The notes below the pieces were generated by a model that searched no databases, was not told the DNA's origin, and saw only the letters and a list, made by a program, of their open reading frames with translations. 44,793 bases of DNA from a phage: sequence record PZ445535.1; one strand, given 5' to 3'. Positions 11,257 to 23,329 of the stretch are shown piece after piece; within the stretch, counting starts at the first letter, position 1; each line of letters starts with the position of its first letter. The position numbers were made by a program, and so were the translations under genes.

Positions 11257-13899
11257 ATGGCAGATCAAGCCGCAGGCATTACGCTAAAGGCGGACGTGTC
11301 GCAAATTAAATCGGCGAACAATGCGCTAGACCAAATGGCGCAAAAATCCGATAACACCGAAAAGAAAGTTAAGAAGCTAAACGACACCCTCGGCAACAAT
11401 AAGAAGGAGTCGTCCGGCGCTGCGGATGGAATGGGTAAGTTTGCACAGCAGACTGAACGAGCCGCAGATGGCATGACCAAACAGGAACGTTTGGCAAACC
11501 GGTTAGGCATGTCAACCAAAAACCTCGGCTTCGCATCACGCAACGCTGCATTCCAGCTTCAGGACATTGCCGTAACGCTTGAGATGGGTATGCCAGTGCA
11601 CCGTGTCATGCTTCAGCAGTTACCGCAGCTTACCGGTGCGTTTGGCGGTATGGCTAACACCTTGCGTTATGTTGCAGGCGTACTCGGTCCAGTAGGGATC
11701 GGCCTCGCGGCATTAACGGCAACGCTTGGCGTAGGTGTGGCTATGACCACGCGTGCCGATAACCAGGTTGCGGCGCTAAACAAGACGCTCACTCTTTCAG
11801 GTAACATTTCCGGCCTGACAGCTAACCGTATCCTGGAGCTTGCCGAGAACGCCGAGCGCATGGGAGGGACGTTCCGCAAGACTAAGGACACCATTCAGGC
11901 GCTGGCAGCGGCGGGTGTGCGCGCAGGGTCTGACTTCGGCGCACTTGCTAAGGTCGTTAATGATTTCGCCAGTGTATCAAGCGAGCCAATCGAAGACGTC
12001 GTTTCGGCGGTAGCCAAACTGTCAACGGACCCTGTAGGCGGCTTGCGCGCATTGGCGGACCAGTACCATGTCGTTACGGAAGCGCAGATCCAGCAGGTGC
12101 AATCGCTCATGGACGCGGGTAAAGAGACTGAAGCAGTTGCGGCGGCTAACAAGATCGCAACCGCATCATTCTCGGATATGACCACCGAGCTTAAAGCGAA
12201 CATGGGTACGCTTGAGCGCTCAATGAAAACGGTCACATCAGCAGCGAAGTCTATGTGGGATGCTATTCTGGATATTGGTCGGGCACAGTCGTCTAACGAA
12301 GCTGAGATGGAAGCCCGCGAGAAATTGCAGCGACTGACCACCGCCTACTACGTTGAGCAGAAAGCGGTTGCTGAGGCTGGCGGCAAGATGACCGAGGCAC
12401 AGAAGGCCCGGATCGATATGCTGTATAGCGAGATGGTAGCCCAGGAGAAGGTAGTTGCCTCCGCCACGCTGGCTAACCGCCAGAAGCGCGAAGAAGCACA
12501 GACCGCCGAGCAATCGGCTAAAGCACGGCAGCAGGAAAACCAGGCGGCCCGTGAACTGGCGGAGCTTGATGCTAAATACGCCACCAACGCCGAGAAGCGT
12601 GCGAAAGAACTGGCGAAGGTAGACCGCTTGCTGAAGTCCGGCACGATTTCGCAGGAGCGCCACGCCGAGCTTGTCGAGCAGATTAACAAGATGTACAAAG
12701 ACCCGGCACCGAAGAAGGCCGCTGCCGTTCGGGTAGACTCCGGCCTGAAAATGCTTGAGATCGCAAAGAGCGAACTGGCGCAACTTCGCGAGGCTGGAAA
12801 GTTAATCACCGCCAATGCTTCAAACCAGACACGCACACAGCGCGCACAAGCGGCCCTGAGCAAGCTAATTGCCGATAATGAGCAGTTAGTCGCTGCGAGC
12901 AAGTCCAGAGCGCTGACGGCAGCGGAGAAGCAGCAATTAGCCGAGTTTGAGAACGTACGCGCGGTGCGAGAGCAAATCGTCGCGGAAGCGAAGCGCCAGG
13001 ATGAGGTCGAGAAGTCCGTAAAAGCGCACGCGCAGATCGACGCCTACCTGAAGAATCAGGACGCCGAACTGAAAGCCATTACGGCAGGCTACGCCTTATC
13101 GACCCGCGAAGCGTCTAACCTGCGGGAAGAGATGCAGCTAATTGACAGACTGAAGCGCGTCGGTGCTTCCGACACAGATATTGACCGTGCTGTTTCAAAG
13201 CTGCGCGAAGTGCAGGAGGCGCAAACCGGCGCTAACGCGTCGTTGTGGGATGGCTTCAGCCGCGGCCTGAAAGATAGCGTGGATGACCTGGGTAACGGAT
13301 ATACGCAGATGGTATCCGCGACAAAATTCACGTTCGGCGCTATGATGGATACGATGAACGAGTTTTTCGAGACTGGTAAATTCAACGCGAGGGATATGAT
13401 TAAATCCATCCTGAGCGAATTTATCAAGCTGGCTACCTCGCAAGCGTTTAAGTCCGTTGTTACCGCGTTCGGCGGTGGTGGAAAAGACGGACTGTTTGGG
13501 GCGATCTTCTCCGGCCTCACTAAGAACGCCGACGGCGGAGCGTACTCCGGCGGCAACCTTTCCGCGTATTCCGGGCAAGTGGTGAGCCAGCCTACCTTTT
13601 TCAATTACGGCGTTAAGGCGTTCGCTAAGGGCGCAGGATTGATGGGCGAGGCCGGGCCAGAGGCCATCATGCCACTGAAGCGCGGGCCGGACGGTAAGCT
13701 GGGCGTTGCCGCAAGTGGCGCGGGCGGAGGCGGCATCGTTGTGACCACTAACGTCAACATGGGTACGGGGCAGGCCGACACCAGCGTTAAAGGTACCGAC
13801 CCACGAATGGGCCAGGTATTTGGCAAGCAGATCACGGAAGCGGTTAAAGCCGAAATCGTGAAAGCAACTAAACCAGGTGGTGTACTTTATAAACGATGA
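11257..13899 (+). CDS. tape measure protein
   Basis: 880 aa; long alpha-helical Ala/Gln/Lys-rich sequence; Gly-rich C-terminal region; RBS AGGGGGGG; followed by M/L/K/I/J-like genes. Confidence 0.9.
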   Translation: MADQAAGITLKADVSQIKSANNALDQMAQKSDNTEKKVKKLNDTLGNNKKESSGAADGMGKFAQQTERAADGMTKQERLANRLGMSTKNLGFASRNAAFQLQDIAVTLEMGMPVHRVMLQQLPQLTGAFGGMANTLRYVAGVLGPVGIGLAALTATLGVGVAMTTRADNQVAALNKTLTLSGNISGLTANRILELAENAERMGGTFRKTKDTIQALAAAGVRAGSDFGALAKVVNDFASVSSEPIEDVVSAVAKLSTDPVGGLRALADQYHVVTEAQIQQVQSLMDAGKETEAVAAANKIATASFSDMTTELKANMGTLERSMKTVTSAAKSMWDAILDIGRAQSSNEAEMEAREKLQRLTTAYYVEQKAVAEAGGKMTEAQKARIDMLYSEMVAQEKVVASATLANRQKREEAQTAEQSAKARQQENQAARELAELDAKYATNAEKRAKELAKVDRLLKSGTISQERHAELVEQINKMYKDPAPKKAAAVRVDSGLKMLEIAKSELAQLREAGKLITANASNQTRTQRAQAALSKLIADNEQLVAASKSRALTAAEKQQLAEFENVRAVREQIVAEAKRQDEVEKSVKAHAQIDAYLKNQDAELKAITAGYALSTREASNLREEMQLIDRLKRVGASDTDIDRAVSKLREVQEAQTGANASLWDGFSRGLKDSVDDLGNGYTQMVSATKFTFGAMMDTMNEFFETGKFNARDMIKSILSEFIKLATSQAFKSVVTAFGGGGKDGLFGAIFSGLTKNADGGAYSGGNLSAYSGQVVSQPTFFNYGVKAFAKGAGLMGEAGPEAIMPLKRGPDGKLGVAASGAGGGGIVVTTNVNMGTGQADTSVKGTDPRMGQVFGKQITEAVKAEIVKATKPGGVLYKR

Positions 13900-13904
13900 T
13901 AAAA

Positions 13905-13936
13905 TGGCCCTCACACACAACGTGAGGGCTTTTTTA
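13905..13936 (+). terminator. terminator-like hairpin abutting start codon of gene at 13936 (possible attenuator)
   Basis: GCCCTCACACACAACGTGAGGGC hairpin followed by TTTTTT then ATG. Confidence 0.5.
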
Positions 13937-14535
13937 TGGCACAAGGTACAATCACAGTAACGAAGGGTAGTAAGACCGTCACAGGAGCAGGGACAGCGTT
14001 TTTAGGGGCATTGGGTAAAGTGTTCTTGCTGGCTACCATCGACGGCAACGACTACGTTGCTAAAATTGCAGCGTTCAATTCAGCAACGTCTATCACACTG
14101 GTGGACAACTGGCCCGGACCGACTAAATCCGGCGCTGCGTACGAACTGATTGAGGCGCACGACCCGCGGGCTAATGAGTGGCCTTACTACTGGCATATGC
14201 AATTGCAAGGCGGTGGCGACGTGCAGCTATCCTTCCGATCCGAAGAATTGCAATTCGGCAACGGGTACGGGCAGAACATCGCCGACGGGCCGAACGCCGA
14301 GACGAAACAATTCCCGATCCAGTTTGTCGGCTTGACTAACGACAAGTGGAATAACCCGAAGCTGGTTTATAACTTCCTTCGTGCGCATTTTGTGCGACCG
14401 TTTATTGCCACAGCGCCGGACGGGGAGAAAGGGCTTTACGTTGTAGAGCGGTCTAGCTTGTCGTACACTGACAACGGACACTACACGGCAACCGTAGCCG
14501 CGACACTTAAAACAGCCATTGGATTCGTGCAATGA
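13936..14535 (+). CDS. minor tail protein (gpM-like C-terminal half with N-terminal fiber-like domain)
   Basis: 199 aa; C-terminal LQFGNGYGQN...FVGL pattern resembles lambda M; N-terminal ~70 aa is about 39% identical to the N-terminus of the tail fiber at 21416. Confidence 0.55.
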   Translation: MAQGTITVTKGSKTVTGAGTAFLGALGKVFLLATIDGNDYVAKIAAFNSATSITLVDNWPGPTKSGAAYELIEAHDPRANEWPYYWHMQLQGGGDVQLSFRSEELQFGNGYGQNIADGPNAETKQFPIQFVGLTNDKWNNPKLVYNFLRAHFVRPFIATAPDGEKGLYVVERSSLSYTDNGHYTATVAATLKTAIGFVQ

Positions 14536-15320
14536 ATAAACTTTACCGTGAGGCAACACGCTTTGACCCGTCGGGGCGCGTTCGCCTGATTCACATTGAT
14601 GCGCAGGACGTCGATCCTGGCGACGGCGCGATCGGGGCAGGCCACCACTACTTCCACTATTGCTTTATCCCGCACACTGCGGAAGATATTGCCGCTGCCG
14701 GTGGGGATGAGTCTAAGCTGAAGCCTAAATCACTGTTCTTTGACGGGCAGGAATATGAATTTTGGCCCTTTGAGCTAACCGGCCTTAATTTCTCCACCTC
14801 AACGGCAGCAGATCCGCAGCTAACAATCGTCGATATTGGCGGCGTTATCACTCGCTTGTCACTGAATCACGACCAGCTACTTGGAGCTAAGGTTGAGATT
14901 ATCGACACGTTTGCGAAGTTCCTGGACAATGGTGCAGATCCAGACCCAACGCAAAAACGCGTCCAGGAGTTTTACATTGATTCGCAGGTCGGACGCAATC
15001 CTGGGCGACAAATTACGTTTGCGCTATCCTCACCCGCGGATATGGAAGGGCAGGTTGTCCCGCGCCGTCAAATCATGAATATGTGCGAGTGGGCGCTTAA
15101 TGGCAAATACGCCAGCGGGGATGGGTGCACGTGGAATCTGGCGGCCCCCGGCATCAAGTATTACGACGAGCGTGGCAACGAAGTCATTGCCCCGAACATG
15201 GACCGCTGCGGAGGCTGTTTATCGGACTGCTATCTGCGATTCGGTCAAGGACTGGCAGACCCGAAATCGGCGGTGCTGGACTTCGGCGGCTTCCCCGGAT
15301 CTAAACTTATCAAGGGGTAA
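14532..15320 (+). CDS. minor tail protein L-like
   Basis: 262 aa; C-terminal Cys cluster (CTWN...CGGCLSDC) as in lambda gpL; ATGA overlap with upstream gene. Confidence 0.65.
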   Translation: MNKLYREATRFDPSGRVRLIHIDAQDVDPGDGAIGAGHHYFHYCFIPHTAEDIAAAGGDESKLKPKSLFFDGQEYEFWPFELTGLNFSTSTAADPQLTIVDIGGVITRLSLNHDQLLGAKVEIIDTFAKFLDNGADPDPTQKRVQEFYIDSQVGRNPGRQITFALSSPADMEGQVVPRRQIMNMCEWALNGKYASGDGCTWNLAAPGIKYYDERGNEVIAPNMDRCGGCLSDCYLRFGQGLADPKSAVLDFGGFPGSKLIKG

Positions 15321-16063: not shown

Positions 16064-16671
16064 CCACTTTTAAATTATACGGCGTCTTAGGACGCCGTTT
16101 TGGTAAAGAGCATAAGCTGGACTGCTTCACGCCGGGCGAGGGTATCACCGGCCTATGTGTGAAGTTACCCGGCTTACAGGAATTTTTAATGTCTGCGCAC
16201 CTGGATAATATGATGTTCAAAGTGCGCAAGGGTAATCACACGATGAGCGGGACCGACGAGCTAGGCGAAGCCCACGGCAACCGCGTCATTACCATCGCGC
16301 CAGTAATGACCGGTGCGAAAAGCGGATTAGGCCAATTGCTGGCGGGCGTGGCTATTGTAGTGGCCTCGTTCTATACGGGCGGGCTTGCTGCTGCCGCTTT
16401 CGGTGCTTCCGCCGCTACCGCCGCCGCGATCGGGACTGCGACATTCTCGTTCGGGATGTCTATGGCGCTGGGCGGCGTTATGCAGCTACTGTCACCGCAG
16501 CCGAAAGGATTGCAGACCCGCCAGGACGTGGATAACAAGGCATCGTATGCGTTCGGAGGGCCGGTAAACACGACTGCGCAGGGGACAGCACTTGGTGTAT
16601 TATGGGGCGAGCGTGAGATCGGCGGCGCTATTATTTCTGCCGGTATCGTAACTGAGGATTTACACGAATGA
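16054..16671 (+). CDS. tail assembly protein I-like
   Basis: 206 aa from ATG 16054 (RBS GGAG 11 nt upstream); Gly/Ala-rich hydrophobic C-terminal half; overlaps K stop and J start. Confidence 0.55.
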   Translation: MAMTTFKLYGVLGRRFGKEHKLDCFTPGEGITGLCVKLPGLQEFLMSAHLDNMMFKVRKGNHTMSGTDELGEAHGNRVITIAPVMTGAKSGLGQLLAGVAIVVASFYTGGLAAAAFGASAATAAAIGTATFSFGMSMALGGVMQLLSPQPKGLQTRQDVDNKASYAFGGPVNTTAQGTALGVLWGEREIGGAIISAGIVTEDLHE

Positions 16672-19600
16672 CTATCGTCTACTCCGTAACGGGCCATAAG
16701 GGTGGAGGCGGGAAACAGCACACCCCGCAGGAGACGCCTGATAGCCTGCACTCGCTGGCTAAAATCCGCATTCTGCTCGCACTGGGTGAAGGGGAATTTG
16801 AAGGCATCCCTTCGACAGCCGAGCTACGCAAGCGCGTCTACCTGGACGGCACGCCGATCATGAACGAGGATAACTCGGAAAACTTCCCTGGCGCACGCGT
16901 TGAATTTCGCCCCGGAACACAGCACCAGGATGTGATTCACGGATTTTCAGCCGTGGAAAGCGAGTCATCCGTAAACGTCAAACTGGAACAGGGGACGCCG
17001 TGGGTCCGTCAAATCACCGACACCAGTCTTGACGCGGTGCGCATTCGCATCGGTATTCCTGCGTTGTACACCAACGAGGAAAACGGCGATCTGGTGGGTG
17101 GGCGCATCGACTATAAAATCGTGGTGTACACCGACAACGCTGATCCGCGGGAGTTTAACTTCGCTGCCGTTGGTAAAACAATGTCGCTGTATGAGCGCGA
17201 CCACCGCATTGAATTACCGCCGAACGTTAACACTAGCTGGCGCGTCGAAGTGCACCGCATTACGCCCGACTCCACCTCGGCGAAAGTGGTAAACGATATT
17301 CGCGTGCAGTCAATCACTGAGATTGTCGACGCCCGTTTGCGCTACCCGCTAACTGCGTTGCTATTCGTCGAGTTCGACGCGAAGGCTTTCCAGAATATCC
17401 CGCGCGTGTCTATCAAGTGCAAAGGCCGCAAAGTGCTGGTCCCTAACAACTACGACCCGATCGCGCATACCTATAGCGGCGACTGGGATGGTACCTTCAA
17501 GCGTGCATGGACGGATAACCCGGCGTGGCACTGGTACGATATTTGTATTACGGAACGTTTCGGACTCGGTCGTCGCATCAAGCCGCAAATGCTAAACCGC
17601 TATGCGCTTTACCAGATCGCCCAGCGCTGCGATCAGAAGGTTAGCGACGGCAACGGCGGACAGGAAATCCGGTTTAAGAACGACATGTACATCCAGTCGC
17701 AGACCGACGCATGGACCGTACTGAAAGACTTAGCCGCCATCTTCGCCGGTATGACCTGGTGGGGCAACCAAATGCTGAATATTGTCAGTGACCAGCCGGT
17801 CGCTGCGGTTTCGCACACCATTACTAATGCCTCCGTTATAGATGGGCGATTCGATTATGCGTCTGGCAGCCAGAAGACCCGCTATTCAACCTTTGCGGTG
17901 GCATACGGCAATCCGGCTAACCATTACGACGACGCAATCGCTACGGGCCAGCGTGTGGAACTGGTGCGCCGCCACAAGATTAACCGCCTTGATATTACGG
18001 CGATCGGCTGTACGCGTGAATCAGAAGCGCAACGCCGCGGGCACTGGGCGCTCATCTCAAACCAGCTTGATCAGCAGGTGAGCTTCAAAGTCGGCATGGA
18101 AGGTCTGTTCTTCATCCCCGGAAGCGTGGTAGCTATCGCAGACACCAATATTTCTGGCGGTTTCGAAATCCGCGGCGGGCGCTTACTGGAAGACCCCGGA
18201 ACGCGCACGGTGCTTAACACCGACGAGGAAATTACATTCCGACCAGGTGATAAATTCCTGGTACGCACTGCGAACGGTAGTGTCGAGACTCGCACAATCT
18301 CAAGCGTAAACGGCAACAAGGTTACGCTATCAAGCGCACTTGACGCGGACCCGATCCCGTTCCAGCCGTTTTGCGTTGACGGTGATGATATTCAGGTGCA
18401 GAAGTTCCGCATCACCGATCTGGAGTATGACGACGCGACCAGCACCTTCTCGGTGCGCGGGATTGAGTACAACGACAGCAAGTATGATGCCGTTGATAAT
18501 GGCGCTCGTCTTGACCCGGGCATCTTTACGCAAATGCCGGACGGCGTGCTGAAGGGGCCGGAATCCGTGACCATTACCCCGTCGCAGATTTCAAGCCAGG
18601 GCCAGTTAATCACCAACGTGGATATTGTTTTCCCGCCGGTGAAAGATGCCGTTGTCTATGAAATCCAGTGGCGAAGGACCAGCCTTCAGAATATGGCGGT
18701 GCAGTGGGGTAACGACTGGGTAAACCTGCCTCGCACGCCGTCAAACGGTGCGCACATCCCTAACGTGTTTTCCGGTAACTACCAGGCGCGCGTCCGGGCA
18801 ATCGGTATGGGTGAAATCTCATCCCCGTGGGTGGAATCTGTCATCACGCCGATTGAAGGTCGTCTCGGCGGTCTGAATGCGCCAATCATTACGGCAGCAG
18901 TGTCCGGTCTGCATCAGATCTTGTGGAAGTGGAATCACAACAACGCCGCTACGGATATTTCATACACGGAATTGCAGGTACGCAAGCCGGGTACTGAAGA
19001 ATGGCACTTCCTCACCAACGTGCCGTATCCGGGCGCGGACTATGCGCAGACGTCGCTTGAGTTCGGGGTCTATCAGCAGTTGCGCGCACGCGTGTCTGAT
19101 AAAATCGGCAACCTGTCAGACTGGTCAGCGCCGTTTGAAGGCCAGGTGAGCGATAAAGTCGACGACTACATGAAGGGACTCGACGACGAGTTTTTGACTT
19201 CGGAAGACGGTAAGCACTTCCAGGAGCAGATCGACACGTTCCCGCAAGGCATCTATGAGTCAATGCTCACTGACGCGCAGCAGTTGTTTAACGCCCGCGC
19301 CGAGTACAAAGGGATTTACGCCGAGATCAAGGTGGCTTATAACGTCGCTGCCGACGCACACCAGGCCGTCGCGCAACTGGAAACACTGGTAGGCACTCGT
19401 ATTGACGACGCGGAAGCGGCGATCCACACGCTACAGACTGCACAGAGCACGCACGAACAGGCGTTTGCCCAGTACCAGCAAACTGTGTCAGCGAAGTTTG
19501 GCGAGCAGGAATCGGCGATTCAGCAGGTTCAGACGGCAACGAGTGACGTAGCCAGCGCACTGGCGACCTATAAAACACAGGTAGCCGCGCAGTTCGGGCA

Positions 19601-20114
19601 GCAGTCAGCCGCGATCGAGCAGAAGATGACGTCCACGTTTAACCACTCCGGCGGTAGCGCAACGTACAGCCTGAAAGCTGGCGTGACGTACAACGGGACG
19701 TATTATGATGCGGGTATGCAGCTTTCGGTTGTTGCATCAGGCAACGCGGTTAAATCCCGCATCGCGTTCAAAGCGGACCAGTTCTACATTATGCACCCGT
19801 CGAACGGCACGCTATCCTCGGCGTTCATCGTAGATGGCGGGCAGGTGTACATCGACACGGCACGAATCAAGAATGCGTCCATTAACTTTGCGCAGATCAC
19901 GGACACATTACAGTCCAATAACTTCGCAGGAGGTAGCCGCGGGTGGCGAATCCTGAAGAACGGGCAGGCCGAGTTTAACGAGGTAACAGTCCGCGGCAAC
20001 CTGTTCGCTACCACCGGTAACTTCGGATTCTCGGGCGGGACCGTGACAATCGACAAGACGGGTGTTAACGTGCCGCTACCAGGCGGCGGGAGGGTGAAAG
20101 TCGGAACGTGGTAA
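16668..20114 (+). CDS. central tail fiber / host specificity protein J-like
   Basis: 1148 aa; N-terminus GHKGGGGKQHTPQETPDSL...EGEFEG...VYLDGTPI matches the lambda J pattern; intrinsic terminator downstream. Confidence 0.85.
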   Translation: MTIVYSVTGHKGGGGKQHTPQETPDSLHSLAKIRILLALGEGEFEGIPSTAELRKRVYLDGTPIMNEDNSENFPGARVEFRPGTQHQDVIHGFSAVESESSVNVKLEQGTPWVRQITDTSLDAVRIRIGIPALYTNEENGDLVGGRIDYKIVVYTDNADPREFNFAAVGKTMSLYERDHRIELPPNVNTSWRVEVHRITPDSTSAKVVNDIRVQSITEIVDARLRYPLTALLFVEFDAKAFQNIPRVSIKCKGRKVLVPNNYDPIAHTYSGDWDGTFKRAWTDNPAWHWYDICITERFGLGRRIKPQMLNRYALYQIAQRCDQKVSDGNGGQEIRFKNDMYIQSQTDAWTVLKDLAAIFAGMTWWGNQMLNIVSDQPVAAVSHTITNASVIDGRFDYASGSQKTRYSTFAVAYGNPANHYDDAIATGQRVELVRRHKINRLDITAIGCTRESEAQRRGHWALISNQLDQQVSFKVGMEGLFFIPGSVVAIADTNISGGFEIRGGRLLEDPGTRTVLNTDEEITFRPGDKFLVRTANGSVETRTISSVNGNKVTLSSALDADPIPFQPFCVDGDDIQVQKFRITDLEYDDATSTFSVRGIEYNDSKYDAVDNGARLDPGIFTQMPDGVLKGPESVTITPSQISSQGQLITNVDIVFPPVKDAVVYEIQWRRTSLQNMAVQWGNDWVNLPRTPSNGAHIPNVFSGNYQARVRAIGMGEISSPWVESVITPIEGRLGGLNAPIITAAVSGLHQILWKWNHNNAATDISYTELQVRKPGTEEWHFLTNVPYPGADYAQTSLEFGVYQQLRARVSDKIGNLSDWSAPFEGQVSDKVDDYMKGLDDEFLTSEDGKHFQEQIDTFPQGIYESMLTDAQQLFNARAEYKGIYAEIKVAYNVAADAHQAVAQLETLVGTRIDDAEAAIHTLQTAQSTHEQAFAQYQQTVSAKFGEQESAIQQVQTATSDVASALATYKTQVAAQFGQQSAAIEQKMTSTFNHSGGSATYSLKAGVTYNGTYYDAGMQLSVVASGNAVKSRIAFKADQFYIMHPSNGTLSSAFIVDGGQVYIDTARIKNASINFAQITDTLQSNNFAGGSRGWRILKNGQAEFNEVTVRGNLFATTGNFGFSGGTVTIDKTGVNVPLPGGGRVKVGTW

Positions 20115-20118
20115 ATGC

Positions 20119-20143
20119 GAAGGGGCCAAACGGCCCCTTTTTC
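20119..20143 (+). terminator. intrinsic terminator after J-like gene
   Basis: AAGGGGCC-AAAC-GGCCCCTT hairpin followed by TTTTT. Confidence 0.7.
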
Positions 20144-21107
20144 AATACATATTAGGAAGGACAATAAGCGGAGTAGGTACTGCTATGTTGCGGTTGGGTA
20201 TCAGGAATTGCCGCCGTGAGTAGTTACCGACGACGCGGCTTTTAGCGATACGCACTTTGTTACCCGCCATGCGTATACCGTTCATGCGTACGTGGTTGTA
20301 ACCGCCGTTATTCTCTATCAGCGTGCCGGTGTATGAAAGCTGGATCATACTGTTTCCAATATCCTGGTCCCCCGTGCCAATATTAATCACGCGATTAAAA
20401 ACGAATGGCTTCTTGACCGTGGAGAACGTGACCTGCCCCTGGTTGTTGGTCATCGTGATACCAGCCCCCGGCTGAGGCGGCGTATTGTTGAATATGGCGA
20501 GGTCTAAGTCAACGGCAGCCGCCACGTCGTCAATCCCGCCGTACGAGGCATTGCGGACAATGATATTGGTCCCGTCGAAGGCTACCGACACGTTGCCGTC
20601 GTCCCATCGCGCAAATGGGATGCCACCTACCGGTAATTTCATACTCCCGTTGACGCGAACGCGGCCCACATACTGGCAGGTCATCAGCTTTGCTACGTTA
20701 GATATGGCAGTGAAGTCGGTAGAGTTAGCTACCAGAAGCCCCGCATTGCGCGACCCCACCGGCAGCACTTCCATAATAGTCCCGGCCCATTGAGGCAGGC
20801 CGCTATACGCCCTGAACGCATCAGCGCCACGCAGCGTTACGCCGTTATTGCCGTTTCGCGACACAGACGTAACGTACATCGGATCAGGGATGACCAGAGT
20901 CTGGTCTAATACCTCCATCACTTCAACCGGTCGGGTAAGCACTACTACGACCTGCGATCCTGGCGTTAAGGGTGTATTGATTGTTAGCGTTTTGTCAGAC
21001 TGACAGCGCTGATTGAAGTTTGCACAAAAAGACGGGGCACGAAGCCCCGCGGTGATTTCCATTCTTGGCCTGCCATCGTTATATTCGATAAGAATGCCTG
21101 CACCCAT
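20142..21107 (-). CDS. putative receptor-binding / host-range protein
   Basis: 321 aa; Gly/Asn/Thr-rich, beta-type composition; RBS GGGAG 8 nt upstream; directly downstream of a lipoprotein gene on the same strand, inside the tail fiber region. Confidence 0.4.
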   Translation of the reverse strand: MGAGILIEYNDGRPRMEITAGLRAPSFCANFNQRCQSDKTLTINTPLTPGSQVVVVLTRPVEVMEVLDQTLVIPDPMYVTSVSRNGNNGVTLRGADAFRAYSGLPQWAGTIMEVLPVGSRNAGLLVANSTDFTAISNVAKLMTCQYVGRVRVNGSMKLPVGGIPFARWDDGNVSVAFDGTNIIVRNASYGGIDDVAAAVDLDLAIFNNTPPQPGAGITMTNNQGQVTFSTVKKPFVFNRVINIGTGDQDIGNSMIQLSYTGTLIENNGGYNHVRMNGIRMAGNKVRIAKSRVVGNYSRRQFLIPNRNIAVPTPLIVLPNMY

Positions 21108-21109
21108 AA

Positions 21110-21334
21110 TTACCACTCCCGTGATTTAACTGATACTGTACCTGAGAAGTTACCATCTGCATCGGCGGACAAGCCAGTGTAGCGCATGTCAATGTCTCCG
21201 GTCGCGACCTTTTGCCCATCTACATAACGCAACATGCAGCTTCCAGCGACGTAGGTTACGCAATCACCGTTATGGCGCTCAACCGCACAACCGGACAGCA
21301 TAGCAACGACTAAAATACTTAATAAAGTTTTCAT
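21110..21334 (-). CDS. lipoprotein, putative superinfection-exclusion (Llp/Cor-like)
   Basis: 74 aa; signal peptide MKTLLSILVVAMLSGC with lipobox; RBS AAGGAG 8 nt upstream; own promoter; next to putative RBP. Confidence 0.5.
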   Translation of the reverse strand: MKTLLSILVVAMLSGCAVERHNGDCVTYVAGSCMLRYVDGQKVATGDIDMRYTGLSADADGNFSGTVSVKSREW

Positions 21335-21363
21335 GGTATCATCTCCTTTGTTTTGACAACTTA

Positions 21364-21392
21364 AATATAGTGCAACCAATACGAGATTGCAA
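21364..21392 (-). promoter_or_regulatory. sigma70-like promoter for lipoprotein/RBP cassette (TTGCAA-N17-TATATT)
   Basis: Minus strand: attggTTGCAAtctcgtattggttgcacTATATT; tandem ATTGGTTGCA motifs. Confidence 0.45.
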
Positions 21393-21415: not shown

Positions 21416-23329
21416 ATGGCAGCGGGTATACTTAACGTAACAAACAATAGCAAGGCCGTAACGGGGTCGGGCACGACGTTTACGTCATTGAAAGCAGGCG
21501 ACTTTTTATCGCTGGTGGTGGGGCAAGTCCCATACACCGTAGCGATCGAATCAATCCAGAGTAACACGGCGCTTACGCTGGTGCTGCCGTTTGACGGTCC
21601 GACGTCTACCGGTCTGGCCTGGTCGTCGGTTGACCGCGATACTATGTCACTGGCTACTATGGGCGTAACCGTGCAGGCGCAGAAAGCGCTACGTCTTATG
21701 ATCGCGGACGAAAATAACTGGCGTGCAATCTTCGGTGACGCAGAGCAAATCAGCGTTACACTACCCAACGGCACCGTAATGCAAGGTATGTCGTGGGGCT
21801 ACTTGTCCAGTCTGCTTAATGACGTAGACCCCGTTGAAATGCGCAACCTGCAACAGCAGGCTGAGACTGCTAAAAACCAGGCGGTAACCGCGAAGGGGCA
21901 AGCAGAATCGGCACGCGATGCTGCTAACACCGCGAAGACTGGGGCGGAGAATGCCCGCAACCAGGCTAACAATGCTAAAACCGACGCGCAGACGGCAAAA
22001 AGGCAGGCCGAAGCCGCTCGCGATGCTGCTGTCACTGCGAAGACTGGGGCGGAGAATGCCCGCAACCAGGCGCAAGGCTACCGAGATGAGGCGGAAGGTT
22101 TTAAAAACCAGATTAACCCTGCACTATTCGTGCAGAAGTCGCAAAACCTTAATGACGTTGCCGATAAAGCAGAGGCGCGCGCTAACTTGCAAGTTTTCTT
22201 TGCATCAAACTCTAACCTGGGAACTACAGACCTCAATACGCTCGACAGCACGAAGGAAGGGCGTTATTACCAGACCACCTCGGTGAACGCGACACCCGAG
22301 CGTAACTACCCGTTTCAGGAAGCCGGTTGTCTTACCGTGTTTAAAACGGGAGGGGGTAGTGTGGAGGCTTGCATCCAGGAGTACACCACGTTTTCAAGCC
22401 TGCGTCGGTTCGTCCGTTCGCTCGCTGGGGCGGTATGGACGGCGTGGAAGGAGATCTACCTGCAAGGGTCGTCCCCGACATACGAAAATATCGACTCGAC
22501 AGGACGAGTTAGATCTGAAAAGGCATATCCAGCATTCGAGTGGGTGTCGACGAGAGTAGCCGACGATTTCATCGGTAAGCGAGTCAGCATTGAGAACGAC
22601 ACAGGCGTTAATATGAATATGTTCTTCATGCAGAAAGACACAACCGCAAACAGACGTGTCGTAGCGTTCGCAAGGCCAAACTCTACTGTTTTCCACTTCG
22701 TAGGGTATAACGGCGGGCTACCTACAGACGGCAACAGCGCCCCGTCGAATAACATTAACTTTAACACGCAACCGCAAGGATGGCGTATGGTGTCCGGCGG
22801 CTGGCAAAATGCACCGCTCGATGGGAACAACTACGGGACTTTATTCACGCAGTGTGTGCAAGGTGTGTCGCAGGGGGATTCGAAAGACAACGGTACATCT
22901 GGCTTGTGGTATTCACAGCGATATGTTAATACCGATTCTAGGGTGTTCATCCGAAATCAAACAAACAACGCAGCCTGGGGCAGGTGGTATGAATTTACTA
23001 AAACGGCAGTCTCGGATGAACGCCTGAAGAATGTAAAAGGGGATTTGAATGTTGAAGGTGCGCTCGATAACATCAACCGCATGGAATTTAAAATATTCTC
23101 GTTTAAGGATGAGAAGGCTGGGAAGGGGTATCGTCGCGGTGTTATCTCGCAGCAGATTCGCCAGATCGATAAAGAGTACACGAAGGAGATCGGCGGGTAC
23201 TATCACCTCGACCAGACACCAATGCTACTGGATGCCCTCGCGGCAATTAAGGCGTTGCGTGCGCGTGACGAGGCTAATAAAGCAGAGATTGCAGAACTGA
23301 AAGCAGCGATCGCTGAATTGAAGAAATAA
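21416..23329 (+). CDS. lateral tail fiber with C-terminal intramolecular chaperone (S74-like) domain
   Basis: 637 aa; Ala/Asn/Gln-rich coiled-coil repeats; C-terminal SDERLKN...coiled-coil tail typical of self-cleaving fiber chaperone domains; RBS AAGGAG; bidirectional terminator downstream. Confidence 0.75.
   Translation: MAAGILNVTNNSKAVTGSGTTFTSLKAGDFLSLVVGQVPYTVAIESIQSNTALTLVLPFDGPTSTGLAWSSVDRDTMSLATMGVTVQAQKALRLMIADENNWRAIFGDAEQISVTLPNGTVMQGMSWGYLSSLLNDVDPVEMRNLQQQAETAKNQAVTAKGQAESARDAANTAKTGAENARNQANNAKTDAQTAKRQAEAARDAAVTAKTGAENARNQAQGYRDEAEGFKNQINPALFVQKSQNLNDVADKAEARANLQVFFASNSNLGTTDLNTLDSTKEGRYYQTTSVNATPERNYPFQEAGCLTVFKTGGGSVEACIQEYTTFSSLRRFVRSLAGAVWTAWKEIYLQGSSPTYENIDSTGRVRSEKAYPAFEWVSTRVADDFIGKRVSIENDTGVNMNMFFMQKDTTANRRVVAFARPNSTVFHFVGYNGGLPTDGNSAPSNNINFNTQPQGWRMVSGGWQNAPLDGNNYGTLFTQCVQGVSQGDSKDNGTSGLWYSQRYVNTDSRVFIRNQTNNAAWGRWYEFTKTAVSDERLKNVKGDLNVEGALDNINRMEFKIFSFKDEKAGKGYRRGVISQQIRQIDKEYTKEIGGYYHLDQTPMLLDALAAIKALRARDEANKAEIAELKAAIAELKK
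21911..22071 (+). repeat. 105-bp in-frame tandem duplication inside tail fiber gene
   Basis: 56-nt blocks at 21911-21966 and 22016-22071 nearly identical (AGACTGGGGCGGAGAATGCCCGCAACCAGGC); encode repeated ARDAA-TAKTGAENARNQA. Confidence 0.7.

What the first reader, a model, noticed from the sequence alone, without database searches (positions are those of the whole stretch)
13936..14145. Shared N-terminal domain between a gpM-like minor tail protein and the lateral tail fiber
The first ~70 residues of the protein at 13936 (MAQGTITVTKGSKTVTGAGTAF...ITLVDNWPGPTKSGAAY) and of the fiber at 21416 (MAAGILNVTNNSKAVTGSGTTF...LTLVLPFDGPTSTGLAW) are about 39% identical by eye. The 13936 protein's C-terminal half resembles lambda M. 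A common module on a tail-tip assembly protein and a fiber suggests a shared docking domain or domain shuffling.
Basis: seen in the sequence. Interest (0 to 1): 0.55.

Follow-up and report, generated by a model that had tools for sequence, protein, structure and literature searches.

The report
Fibre-anchor domain copied onto distal tail protein
In this Dhillonvirus-type E. coli phage, the ring protein that joins the tail tube to the tail tip carries an extra 75-residue domain that is a true but old copy of the anchor domain of the phage's side fibre; close relatives do without it, so it is most likely an optional surface add-on and not the fibre's docking site.

Summary
Residues 1-73 of the 199-aa gpM-like protein (13936-14535) and of the 637-aa lateral tail fibre (21416-23329) align without gaps at 37% identity (BLASTP E=3e-10; z=17.9 against shuffles).

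The window is a Dhillonvirus. The 199-aa protein is its distal tail protein (DTP). An 88%-identical orthologue, gp20 of phage Oekolampad/Bas18, is already in PDB entry 23gd.

The shared module belongs to a very large family (3198 cluster representatives). It sits almost always at the N-terminus of fibres, and it includes the F-pyocin side-fibre anchor domain that clamps the central-fibre coiled coil.

All 158 isolated Dhillonviruses carry the fused DTP, and in the 16 related loci examined it sits alongside a fibre bearing the same domain. No other lineage among 50,697 phage records has the fusion.

Metagenomic Dhillonviruses with a 123-aa DTP lacking the domain keep the same fibre anchor (85% identical) and the same central fibre. 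Fibre attachment therefore does not need it.

The DTP copy is under purifying selection (dN/dS 0.13) but is the fastest-evolving tail-tip part, and it does not co-vary with the fibre copy.

Verdict: domain shuffling is supported. A shared docking interface between the DTP and the fibre is not supported. This is a new variant of a known kind, of modest interest.

The parts
13936..14154 (+). N-terminal domain (NTD, aa 1-73) of the distal tail protein: a small beta-barrel module paralogous to the fibre anchor domain
   Evidence: 37% identity to LTF aa 1-73, E=3e-10. No Pfam match. Matches the N-termini of fibre PHROGs 17834, 28473 and 1980. A profile of the two copies matches F2-pyocin side fibre residues 6-78, E=0.0015. 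In the AlphaFold model with a 50-sequence alignment there are six strands and one short helix, with block-mean pLDDT of 71-91 over residues 1-70.
14155..14175 (+). Linker (aa 74-80, EAHDPRA-N) between the NTD and the core. It is almost invariant among Dhillonvirus orthologues.
   Evidence: Alignment of 17 orthologues: AYELIEAHDPR is kept, and even the most divergent NTD (L016) has AYELLEAYDPR. Model pLDDT is below 50 at residues 75-79.
14176..14535 (+). gpM/Dit core of the distal tail protein (aa 81-199, plus stop codon)
21416..21634 (+). N-terminal anchor domain (aa 1-73) of the lateral tail fibre, the second copy of the module
   Evidence: It is 78-95% identical across about 155 Dhillonvirus records and 31-47% identical in fibres of N15, HK225, phiES15, Oslo, S135 and others.
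21635..21835 (+). Conserved 'stem' of the fibre (aa 74-140), which travels with the anchor domain in fibres but is absent from the distal tail protein copy
   Evidence: tblastn of aa 1-140 is conserved as a unit in other genera. dN/dS is 0.05. The F-pyocin papers describe stem helices that follow the N-terminal domain and pack on the central-fibre shaft. Equating the two stems is an inference.
21836..23329 (+). Rest of the lateral tail fibre: Ala/Gln-rich repeat shaft, receptor-binding region and C-terminal intramolecular chaperone domain
   Evidence: phrog_1980 tail fiber, E=1.4e-112. Peptidase_S74 at aa 533-587. The BASEL papers describe Dhillonvirus lateral fibres as O-antigen binders with IMC domains.
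16668..20114 (+). Central fibre (gpJ-like, 1148 aa). Its region around aa 890-1100 is homologous to the F2-pyocin and T1 central-fibre shaft/tip region. It is the most likely docking site of the lateral fibre, by homology.
   Evidence: Pfam FNIII-A_GpJ, Phage-tail_3 and Phage_Tail_Tip. 23gd_D 'J-like tail tip protein gp24'. aa 892-1100 align to F2-pyocin fibre 977-1185, E=2.7e-18, and to T1 gp33, E=4e-28. Docking there is inferred, not shown.
14532..15320 (+). gpL-like hub protein. In the variant cassette (L018-L020) it carries a roughly 150-aa insertion in place of the NTD on the distal tail protein.
   Evidence: PF05100. 23gd_C 'Hub protein gp21'. L018 gpL is 415 aa, and the insert matches the R4C megatron carbohydrate-binding domain, E=1.6e-4.

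Best explanation
The 199-aa protein is the distal tail protein (DTP, the lambda gpM / Dit equivalent) of a Dhillonvirus. By analogy with lambda and T1, six copies form the ring between the tail tube and the conical tip.

In an ancestor of the genus, the 5' end of a fibre gene was copied onto the 5' end of the gpM gene. That segment encodes a roughly 75-residue beta-barrel 'anchor' domain. The result is a DTP with an outward-facing N-terminal domain (NTD).

The fibre keeps its own copy plus a following stem. I infer that the fibre uses these, as the homologous F-pyocin side fibres do, to clamp onto the coiled-coil shaft of the central fibre gpJ.

The DTP copy is not needed for that attachment. 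It behaves as an optional, exchangeable, surface-exposed decoration of the DTP ring. It is retained by selection, but it can be replaced in sister lineages by a carbohydrate-binding-like insertion in gpL, or by nothing.

Its most likely job is accessory. It may give extra low-affinity adhesion to surface glycans, or it may stabilise the periphery of the tube/tip junction. This is comparable to the OB-fold domain on T5 pb9 and to the carbohydrate-binding modules of 'evolved' Dits.

Shown: the homology, the architecture, the distribution, the dispensability for the fibre anchor, and the purifying selection. Inferred: the outward position on the ring, the docking of the fibre on gpJ, and the adhesive or stabilising role.
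For: Homology and modularity:
- BLASTP E=3e-10 and shuffle z=17.9.
- Pfam covers only aa 86-187.
- The AlphaFold model gives a confident separate N-terminal beta-barrel followed by a gpM fold.

Family:
- 3198 cluster representatives match at E<=1e-3, almost all at residue 1 of 200-800-aa fibre-like proteins.
- Only one of the best 150 (P0021, the Dhillonvirus DTP cluster) has a gpM core.
- The profile hits the F2-pyocin side-fibre N-domain at E=0.0015. The function of that domain is known from structures.

The domain is not required for fibre attachment:
- Contigs L018-L020 are ordinary Dhillonviruses (MTP 88-89%, gpK 90%, gpI 94-95%, gpJ 93-94% and LTF aa 1-140 84-85% identical to the window).
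- Yet they carry a 123-aa DTP with no NTD and only 35 nt between the tape-measure stop and the DTP start.
- L021 has a 123-aa DTP, a plain gpL and an LTF with the anchor domain.
- N15 has a 115-aa gpM and a gp25 fibre with the anchor domain.

Swappable decoration:
- In L018-L020 gpL gains a roughly 150-aa insert that matches the domain of the R4C megatron which its authors call carbohydrate-binding.

Selection:
- dN/dS is 0.13 for the DTP NTD, 0.035 for the DTP core, 0.083 for the LTF NTD and 0.05 for the LTF stem.
- Mean pairwise protein distance is 0.125 for the NTD, 0.044 for the core, 0.023 for gpL and 0.036 for the gpJ N-terminus.

No co-variation:
- Spearman rho between DTP-NTD and LTF-NTD distances is 0.16, against 0.60-0.63 with the DTP core and gpL.
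- L016 has a DTP NTD with only 60-61% identity to the window's, next to a near-consensus fibre NTD.

Solved structure:
- PDB 23gd (Oekolampad/Bas18 gp15, gp20, gp21, gp24) contains no fibre chain, although Bas18 encodes an intact 606-aa fibre.

Precedent:
Against: - The only experimentally known activity of this domain family is assembly. [quoted passage not shown] A structural or docking role for the DTP copy is therefore the more conservative inference from homology than glycan adhesion.
- In Ur-lambda the side-fibre collar touches gpM residues K2 and W6. An N-terminal extension of gpM would therefore sit exactly where a fibre collar forms.
- Accessory domains on DTPs are fibre or spike adaptors in Sf11, Avs-1 and others.
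- Among isolated phages the DTP NTD (158 records) and the fibre anchor (about 155 records) occur in nearly the same number of Dhillonvirus records. The NTD-less variants are known only from three or four metagenome assemblies and have not been shown to be viable or to carry fibres.
- No glycan-binding evidence of any kind was obtained.
- I could not see the coordinates of 23gd or find its paper. The absence of a fibre chain may only mean that the fibre was flexible or lost.
Confidence: 0.5

Rival explanations
1. Docking by paralogue mimicry. The six DTP N-domains are built-in subunits of a collar, and the fibre N-domains slot in between them. One possible arrangement is two N-domains from each of three fibre trimers, giving a 12-membered ring like the lambda Stf or T5 p132 collars. 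In this view the DTP copy is the fibre's docking partner at the tube/tip junction.
For: - The family's known behaviour is lateral association of N-domains into a ring.
- The gpM N-terminus lies at the collar contact in Ur-lambda.
- DTP extensions are fibre or spike adaptors in other siphophages.
- The 16 related loci examined all carry both copies, and the two copies occur in nearly the same number of isolate records.
- The linker after the NTD is nearly invariant, which suggests a fixed position.
Against: - The same fibre anchor (84-85% identical) and the same gpJ occur with an NTD-less DTP in L018-L020. A related anchor occurs with an NTD-less DTP or gpM in L021 and N15.
- The two copies do not co-vary (rho 0.16).
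- The DTP copy is the least constrained tail-tip part.
- There is no fibre chain in 23gd or anywhere else in the PDB.
- The homologous F-pyocin fibres dock on the central fibre, and F-pyocin DTPs are plain.
Confidence: 0.25
2. Same ligand, different time. The DTP copy keeps the fibre anchor's affinity for the gpJ coiled-coil shaft. After receptor binding the central fibre folds back along the tail, and the DTP copy captures it, locking the open state.
For: - The fibre-type domain binds an acidic kink of the central-fibre coiled coil in F-pyocins.
- Dhillonvirus gpJ has a homologous shaft region.
- In Ur-lambda the central fibre bends to the side of the tail during infection and the collar approaches the membrane.
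Against: - This is purely inferential.
- The DTP copy lacks the stem that contributes contact residues in F7 pyocin (Lys80, Arg87).
- NTD-less variants exist.
- The F7 shaft refolds after triggering and does not simply fold back (abstract).
Confidence: 0.07
3. The similarity reflects chance, composition (Thr/Gly/Ser/Ala-rich strands), or a recent gene conversion or assembly chimera, and not an old paralogy.
For: Both segments are rich in T, G, S and A. The DTP NTD query alone found nothing in the word-indexed protein search.
Against: - Composition-preserving shuffles never exceed a score of 52, against 120 observed.
- The alignment is gapless and runs end to end from Met1.
- The family-wide invariant positions (G4, T5, G17, T20, F22, Y40, L55, G61, G66) are kept in both copies.
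- The same 30-43% paralogue identity is seen in 16 independent genomes. This rules out recent conversion and chimeras.
Confidence: 0.01

Closest known systems
Distal tail protein gp20 of Escherichia phage Oekolampad (Bas18), PDB 23gd (tail-tip complex with gp15, gp21, gp24)
   Same: It is the orthologue: 199 aa, full-length match at E=1e-115 and about 88% identical, with the same N-terminal module, the same gene order and the same gene numbers.
   Different: The NTD is only about 74% identical to the window's. I could not read the coordinates or find a paper, so what the authors say about residues 1-75 is unknown. The entry was released after April 2026, because it is absent from the Foldseek PDB copy.
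N-terminal (OB-like) anchor domain of F-type pyocin side fibres (PyoF13 / PA0643 / PA0646; PDB 25ve, 25vj)
   Same: It is the same sequence family (profile E=0.0015, residues 3-77 against 6-78). In the pyocin fibre and in the window's fibre the domain sits at residue 1 of a trimeric side fibre and is followed by a stem. The tail tips are homologous throughout: gpJ E=6e-225, gpL E=7e-32.
   Different: In pyocins the domain occurs only on the fibre, and the pyocin DTP (MF2, 113 aa) is plain. Here a second copy is fused to the DTP without the stem.
T5 distal tail protein pb9 (PDB 4JMQ), and carbohydrate-module-bearing 'evolved' Dits
Lambda Stf N-terminal collar domain and T5 p132 / DT57C LtfC collars
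   Same: They are functionally analogous: small N-terminal domains that ring the tail at or near the DTP and hold side fibres.
   Different: The fold is different (Ig-like, six-stranded sheet plus helix, 94 aa). There is no sequence match of the window's fibre to any lambda or T5 chain in the PDB. Those collars are formed from fibre or dedicated collar proteins, not from the DTP.
Lambda gpM, T1 gp37 and N15 gp17 (plain gpM-type DTPs, PF05939)
   Same: The core fold and the gene position are the same.
   Different: They are 109-117 aa with no N-terminal module. N15 nevertheless has a fibre (gp25) with the anchor domain.

Membership tests
gpM / Dit distal tail protein (Pfam PF05939 Phage_min_tail) | Sequence match to the family model above the curated threshold | tested here: met
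   45.2 bits against a cut-off of 39, E=1.4e-11, aa 86-187. phrog_14 at E=1.3e-16 and phrog_9922 at E=6e-124.
gpM / Dit distal tail protein (Pfam PF05939 Phage_min_tail) | Gene lies immediately after the tape measure gene and before the gpL-like hub gene | tested here: met
   TMP 11257-13899, DTP 13936-14535, gpL 14532-15320, then gpK, gpI and gpJ.
gpM / Dit distal tail protein (Pfam PF05939 Phage_min_tail) | Tail-tube-like beta-sandwich fold | tested here: met
gpM / Dit distal tail protein (Pfam PF05939 Phage_min_tail) | Forms the hexameric ring between tube and tip in the virion | not testable with these tools
   Only indirect evidence: the 88%-identical orthologue is deposited as 'Distal tail protein gp20', two chains alongside one gp21 chain and one gp24 chain, in PDB 23gd.
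F-pyocin-type side-fibre N-terminal anchor domain | Sequence homology to the PyoF13 / PA0646 N-domain (residues about 2-78) | tested here: met
   The profile of the two window copies hits 25ve_A at E=0.0015, residues 6-78. The DTP alone gives E=0.025. The match is significant but weak.
F-pyocin-type side-fibre N-terminal anchor domain | Located at residue 1 of a trimeric side fibre and followed by a stem that packs on the central fibre | tested here: met
   Met for the fibre copy (21416-21835): the anchor plus a conserved stretch at aa 74-140. NOT met for the DTP copy, which runs straight into the gpM core.
F-pyocin-type side-fibre N-terminal anchor domain | Binds the coiled-coil shaft of a gpJ-type central fibre | not testable with these tools
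   A homologous shaft/tip region exists in the window's gpJ (aa 892-1100 against F2 977-1185, E=2.7e-18). No binding test was possible.
Lambda Stf / T5 p132 Ig-like collar | Ig-like collar domain related to the Stf N-terminus or to p132 | tested here: not met
   Neither the DTP nor the fibre hit any lambda Stf (9e7m) or T5/DT57C collar chain at E<=1. The model is a small beta-barrel.
Decorated ('evolved') Dit with carbohydrate-binding module | Recognisable carbohydrate-binding module inserted in, or appended to, the Dit | tested here: inconclusive
   No Pfam or PDB carbohydrate-module match for aa 1-80. [quoted passage not shown] The alternative cassette in L018-L020 does carry a carbohydrate-binding-like insert, but in gpL.

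The most novel reading that the evidence does not exclude
The DTP-borne copy keeps the binding specificity of the fibre anchor. It would serve as a second docking site close to the tube. Either it co-assembles with fibre N-domains into a mixed collar made of paralogues (six from the DTP ring plus two from each of three fibres), or it captures the central-fibre shaft when that shaft swings up during infection. A phage would then have turned its fibre's own anchor into part of the tail's fixed scaffold.
Probability: 0.25. Interest if true: 0.6.

Novelty: new variant of a known kind. Interest (0 to 1): 0.35.

Why it matters
Where and how side fibres are held on siphophage tails has only just begun to be resolved (Ur-lambda collar, T5 collar, F-pyocin shaft attachment). 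This case shows that the F-pyocin-type anchor module is widespread in enterobacterial phage fibres. It also shows that one genus has fused a copy to the distal tail protein.

Natural variants lack the fused copy or replace it with a carbohydrate-binding-like insert in gpL. Together they form a ready-made comparison for asking what peripheral tail-tip decorations are for. They also mark a site in the Dhillonvirus tail that tolerates module exchange, which is useful for engineering.

The finding does not change the general picture. Mosaic reuse of small domains among tail proteins is common, and decorated distal tail proteins are already known.

Tried and rejected
1. The word-indexed protein search with the 82-aa NTD returned nothing, and with fibre aa 1-140 only 5 hits. 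The exhaustive HMM search was needed instead.

2. A single-sequence AlphaFold run gave an unusable model (pLDDT 49.8).

4. The search for the paper behind PDB 23gd used six literature searches and several full-text look-ups. Nothing was found. The entry was identified as Oekolampad/Bas18 by sequence only.

5. The co-variation test between the two paralogues showed no signal. It has low power, with 17 genomes and mosaic ancestry.

6. I considered that the short DTPs might be assembly artefacts or split genes. I rejected this for two reasons. Three independent runs give the same architecture. The tape-measure stop lies 35 nt upstream, with the same conserved hairpin as in the full-length forms.

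7. Recent gene conversion between the two copies was considered and rejected, because paralogue identity stays at 30-43% in all genomes.

Full report
**What the window is.** The 11-kb tail region matches 158 phage records at 80-90% nucleotide identity. Nearly all are Escherichia/Shigella phages of the genus Dhillonvirus (HK578-like small siphophages); the best match is Dhillonvirus LM40P1 at 88.9%. The gene order is lambda-like:
- major tail protein
- chaperone
- tape measure protein (11257-13899)
- the 199-aa protein (13936-14535)
- gpL-like hub protein (14532-15320)
- gpK-like JAB/NlpC protein
- gpI-like protein
- gpJ-like central fibre (16668-20114)
- on the minus strand, a DUF6453 protein and a small lipoprotein
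- the 637-aa lateral tail fibre (LTF, 21416-23329)

**The observation.**
- BLASTP of the two proteins gives a single significant segment: residues 1-73 against 1-73, 27/73 identical (37%), no gaps, E=3e-10.
- The local alignment score of the two 80-residue N-termini is 120. Two thousand shuffles gave 27.6 +/- 5.1 with a maximum of 52, so z=17.9. Thr/Gly/Ser-rich composition therefore does not explain the match.
- In a six-frame search of the window each N-terminus finds only the other copy.
- Pfam places the gpM family (PF05939) at residues 86-187 only, leaving residues 1-85 unassigned.

**What the shared module is.**
- PHROGs already has the fused protein as a family (phrog_9922, full-length match, E=6e-124). 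The first 70 residues also hit the N-termini of several tail-fibre families (phrog_17834, 28473, 1980, 12714, 24607 and others).
- An exhaustive profile search of 1.84 billion cluster representatives found 3198 matches at E<=1e-3 and 464 at E<=1e-10. Among the best 150 the module nearly always starts at residue 1 of a 200-800-aa protein.
- Only one of those 150 (P0021, the Dhillonvirus DTP cluster) also has a gpM core.
- A profile of the two window copies matches residues 6-78 of the F2-pyocin side fibre (PDB 25ve) at E=0.0015.
- Three recent cryo-EM studies of F-type pyocins describe that domain, which one group calls OB-like. It is the part that attaches three trimeric side fibres to a kinked, acidic stretch of the central fibre's coiled coil. 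[quoted passage not shown]
- The Dhillonvirus tail tip is homologous to the pyocin one throughout: gpJ E=6e-225, gpL E=7e-32, and the distal shaft/tip region of gpJ (aa 892-1100) E=2.7e-18.
- The window's fibre has the anchor domain plus a conserved stretch at aa 74-140. The two travel together into fibres of N15, HK225, phiES15, Oslo, S135 and others.
- By homology, the fibre copy is therefore an attachment domain and gpJ's shaft is its most likely partner. That last step is inference.

**Who has the fusion.**
[quoted passage not shown] The remaining hits are fibres of N15, HK225 and KW1E_UTAR.
- All 16 related loci fetched have both copies. The paralogues stay 30-43% identical in every genome, so the duplication is old and is not being homogenised.
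- N15 has the fibre anchor (gp25) but a plain 115-aa gpM, as do the pyocins (MF2, 113 aa).

**The informative variants.**
- The protein database holds 122-123-aa relatives of the DTP core, 56-66% identical, without the N-terminal module.
- Their contigs (L018-L020, from three sequencing runs) are ordinary Dhillonviruses. The major tail protein is 88-89%, gpK 90%, gpI 94-95%, gpJ 93-94% and fibre aa 1-140 84-85% identical to the window. This is the same level as between the window and the named Dhillonviruses L001 and L016.
- In these contigs the DTP starts 35 nt after the tape-measure stop, so there is no room for the module. gpL is 415 aa instead of 262 because of a roughly 150-aa insertion.
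- That insertion matches residues 502-617 of the roseophage R4C 'megatron' protein (E=1.6e-4). This lies inside what the R4C authors call its carbohydrate-binding domain.
- A more distant relative, L021, has a 123-aa DTP, a plain gpL and a fibre with the anchor.
- No isolated phage in the collection has the L018-type cassette.
- The same fibre anchor and the same central fibre therefore coexist with three states of the tube/tip junction: a DTP with the module, a gpL with a different add-on, or neither.

**Selection and co-variation.** The figures below come from 17 Dhillonvirus genomes.

| Part | Mean pairwise protein distance | dN/dS |
|---|---|---|
| DTP module (NTD) | 0.125 | 0.13 |
| DTP core | 0.044 | 0.035 |
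| gpL | 0.023 | - |
| gpJ N-terminus | 0.036 | - |
| Fibre anchor (LTF NTD) | 0.074 | 0.083 |
| Fibre stem | 0.076 | 0.05 |

- The DTP module is the most variable tail-tip part, but its dN/dS is far below 1. It is functional but less constrained than the rest.
- Distances in the DTP module track those of the DTP core and gpL (rho 0.60-0.63) but not those of the fibre anchor (rho 0.16).
- The genome with the most divergent DTP module (L016, only 60-61% identical to the window's) has a near-consensus fibre anchor.
- The test has low power, but it gives no hint of a co-evolving interface.

**The solved structure.**
[quoted passage not shown] All are 88% or more identical to the window's proteins.
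- gp20 is 100% identical to bas18_0020 of phage Oekolampad (Bas18), and the gene numbers fit that genome.
- Bas18 encodes an intact 606-aa lateral fibre (gp27). No chain resembling a Dhillonvirus fibre exists anywhere in the PDB copy.
- The entry is too recent for the structure-comparison libraries, and I found no paper for it.
- The lack of a fibre chain fits a fibre that is not rigidly bound to the DTP ring, but it could also reflect flexibility or loss.

**Interpretation.**
- The best-supported reading is domain shuffling. A fibre anchor module was copied onto gpM in the Dhillonvirus lineage. It now serves as an optional, exchangeable, surface-exposed decoration of the DTP ring, while the fibre docks independently, probably on gpJ.
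- Its precise role is unknown. I favour accessory adhesion or peripheral stabilisation, by analogy with the T5 pb9 OB domain and with carbohydrate-binding add-ons. The F2-pyocin authors found the pb9 domain structurally similar to the pyocin fibre domain. The alternative cassette carries a carbohydrate-binding-like domain at the same junction.
- The main rival is a mixed collar, in which DTP modules and fibre anchors interdigitate. It deserves weight because ring formation is the family's only known activity. In Ur-lambda the fibre collar also touches the very N-terminus of gpM. The NTD-less variants show that such a collar cannot be required for fibre attachment.

**Novelty.** Decorated distal tail proteins, fibre anchor domains and mosaic reuse of small tail modules are all known, and the orthologue's structure has been deposited. 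What seems not to have been described in the papers I could search is twofold. First, the DTP decoration is a sequence-level paralogue of the phage's own fibre anchor and of the F-pyocin anchor. Second, natural Dhillonviruses swap it for a gpL insertion. I rate this a new variant of a known kind, of modest interest.

Noticed in passing
window 13906-13935 (+), directly upstream of the DTP start codon at 13936: A GC-rich hairpin (GGCCCTCAC / GTGAGGGC, 7-nt loop) followed by T6 ends exactly at the ATG. It is terminator-like. It is conserved in all Dhillonvirus loci with compensatory stem changes, including the short-DTP variants. Its 3' arm holds the only GAGG-like ribosome-binding sequence. It could attenuate transcription or gate translation of the tail-tip genes after the tape measure gene.
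   Followed up: partly
L018:10001-11609, L019:5772-7380, L020:3411-5019: A Dhillonvirus cassette variant known only from metagenome assemblies. It has a 123-aa DTP without the N-terminal module (core only 66% identical, while the neighbouring genes are about 90% identical). Its 415-aa gpL carries a roughly 150-aa insert that matches the carbohydrate-binding domain of the R4C megatron protein (8gtc_M 502-617, E=1.6e-4). It is absent from 50,697 phage records.
   Followed up: partly
P0001-P0004, P0023, P0028 (representative-library proteins, 1246-2894 aa): The same roughly 65-residue module occurs in 4-12 tandem copies inside giant proteins that also carry PKD, SdrD_B and Peptidase_C25 domains. 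These look like bacterial cell-surface proteins. The module is therefore not restricted to phage fibres.
   Followed up: partly
window 20142-21116 (-) and 21110-21379 (-): The DUF6453 protein and the small lipoprotein between gpJ and the fibre are the most variable part of the tail module. They are 83% and 73% identical to L018 (81% and 78% to L019) but only 34-35% identical to Bas14, while the flanking genes stay at 86-94%. This fits the receptor-binding protein module that decides FhuA, LptD, BtuB or LamB specificity in this genus.
   Followed up: no
P0007 (Escherichia phage vB_Eco_Maverick, 171 aa): The lateral fibre of this phage is reduced to an in-frame remnant: anchor domain, stem and the last 30 or so residues of coiled coil. 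This is a natural 'fibreless' Dhillonvirus that still has the DTP module.
   Followed up: no
window 21836-22130 (LTF aa about 141-238): The fibre shaft begins with Ala/Gln/Asn-rich imperfect repeats; TAKTGAENARNQA occurs twice. The minus strand carries long spurious ORFs across this repeat region.
   Followed up: no
PDB entries 23gd, 10lj, 10xw: Three entries share the Oekolampad major tail protein gp15. A fairly complete Dhillonvirus virion structure therefore appears to exist, but no paper for it was found in the searchable library.
   Followed up: partly
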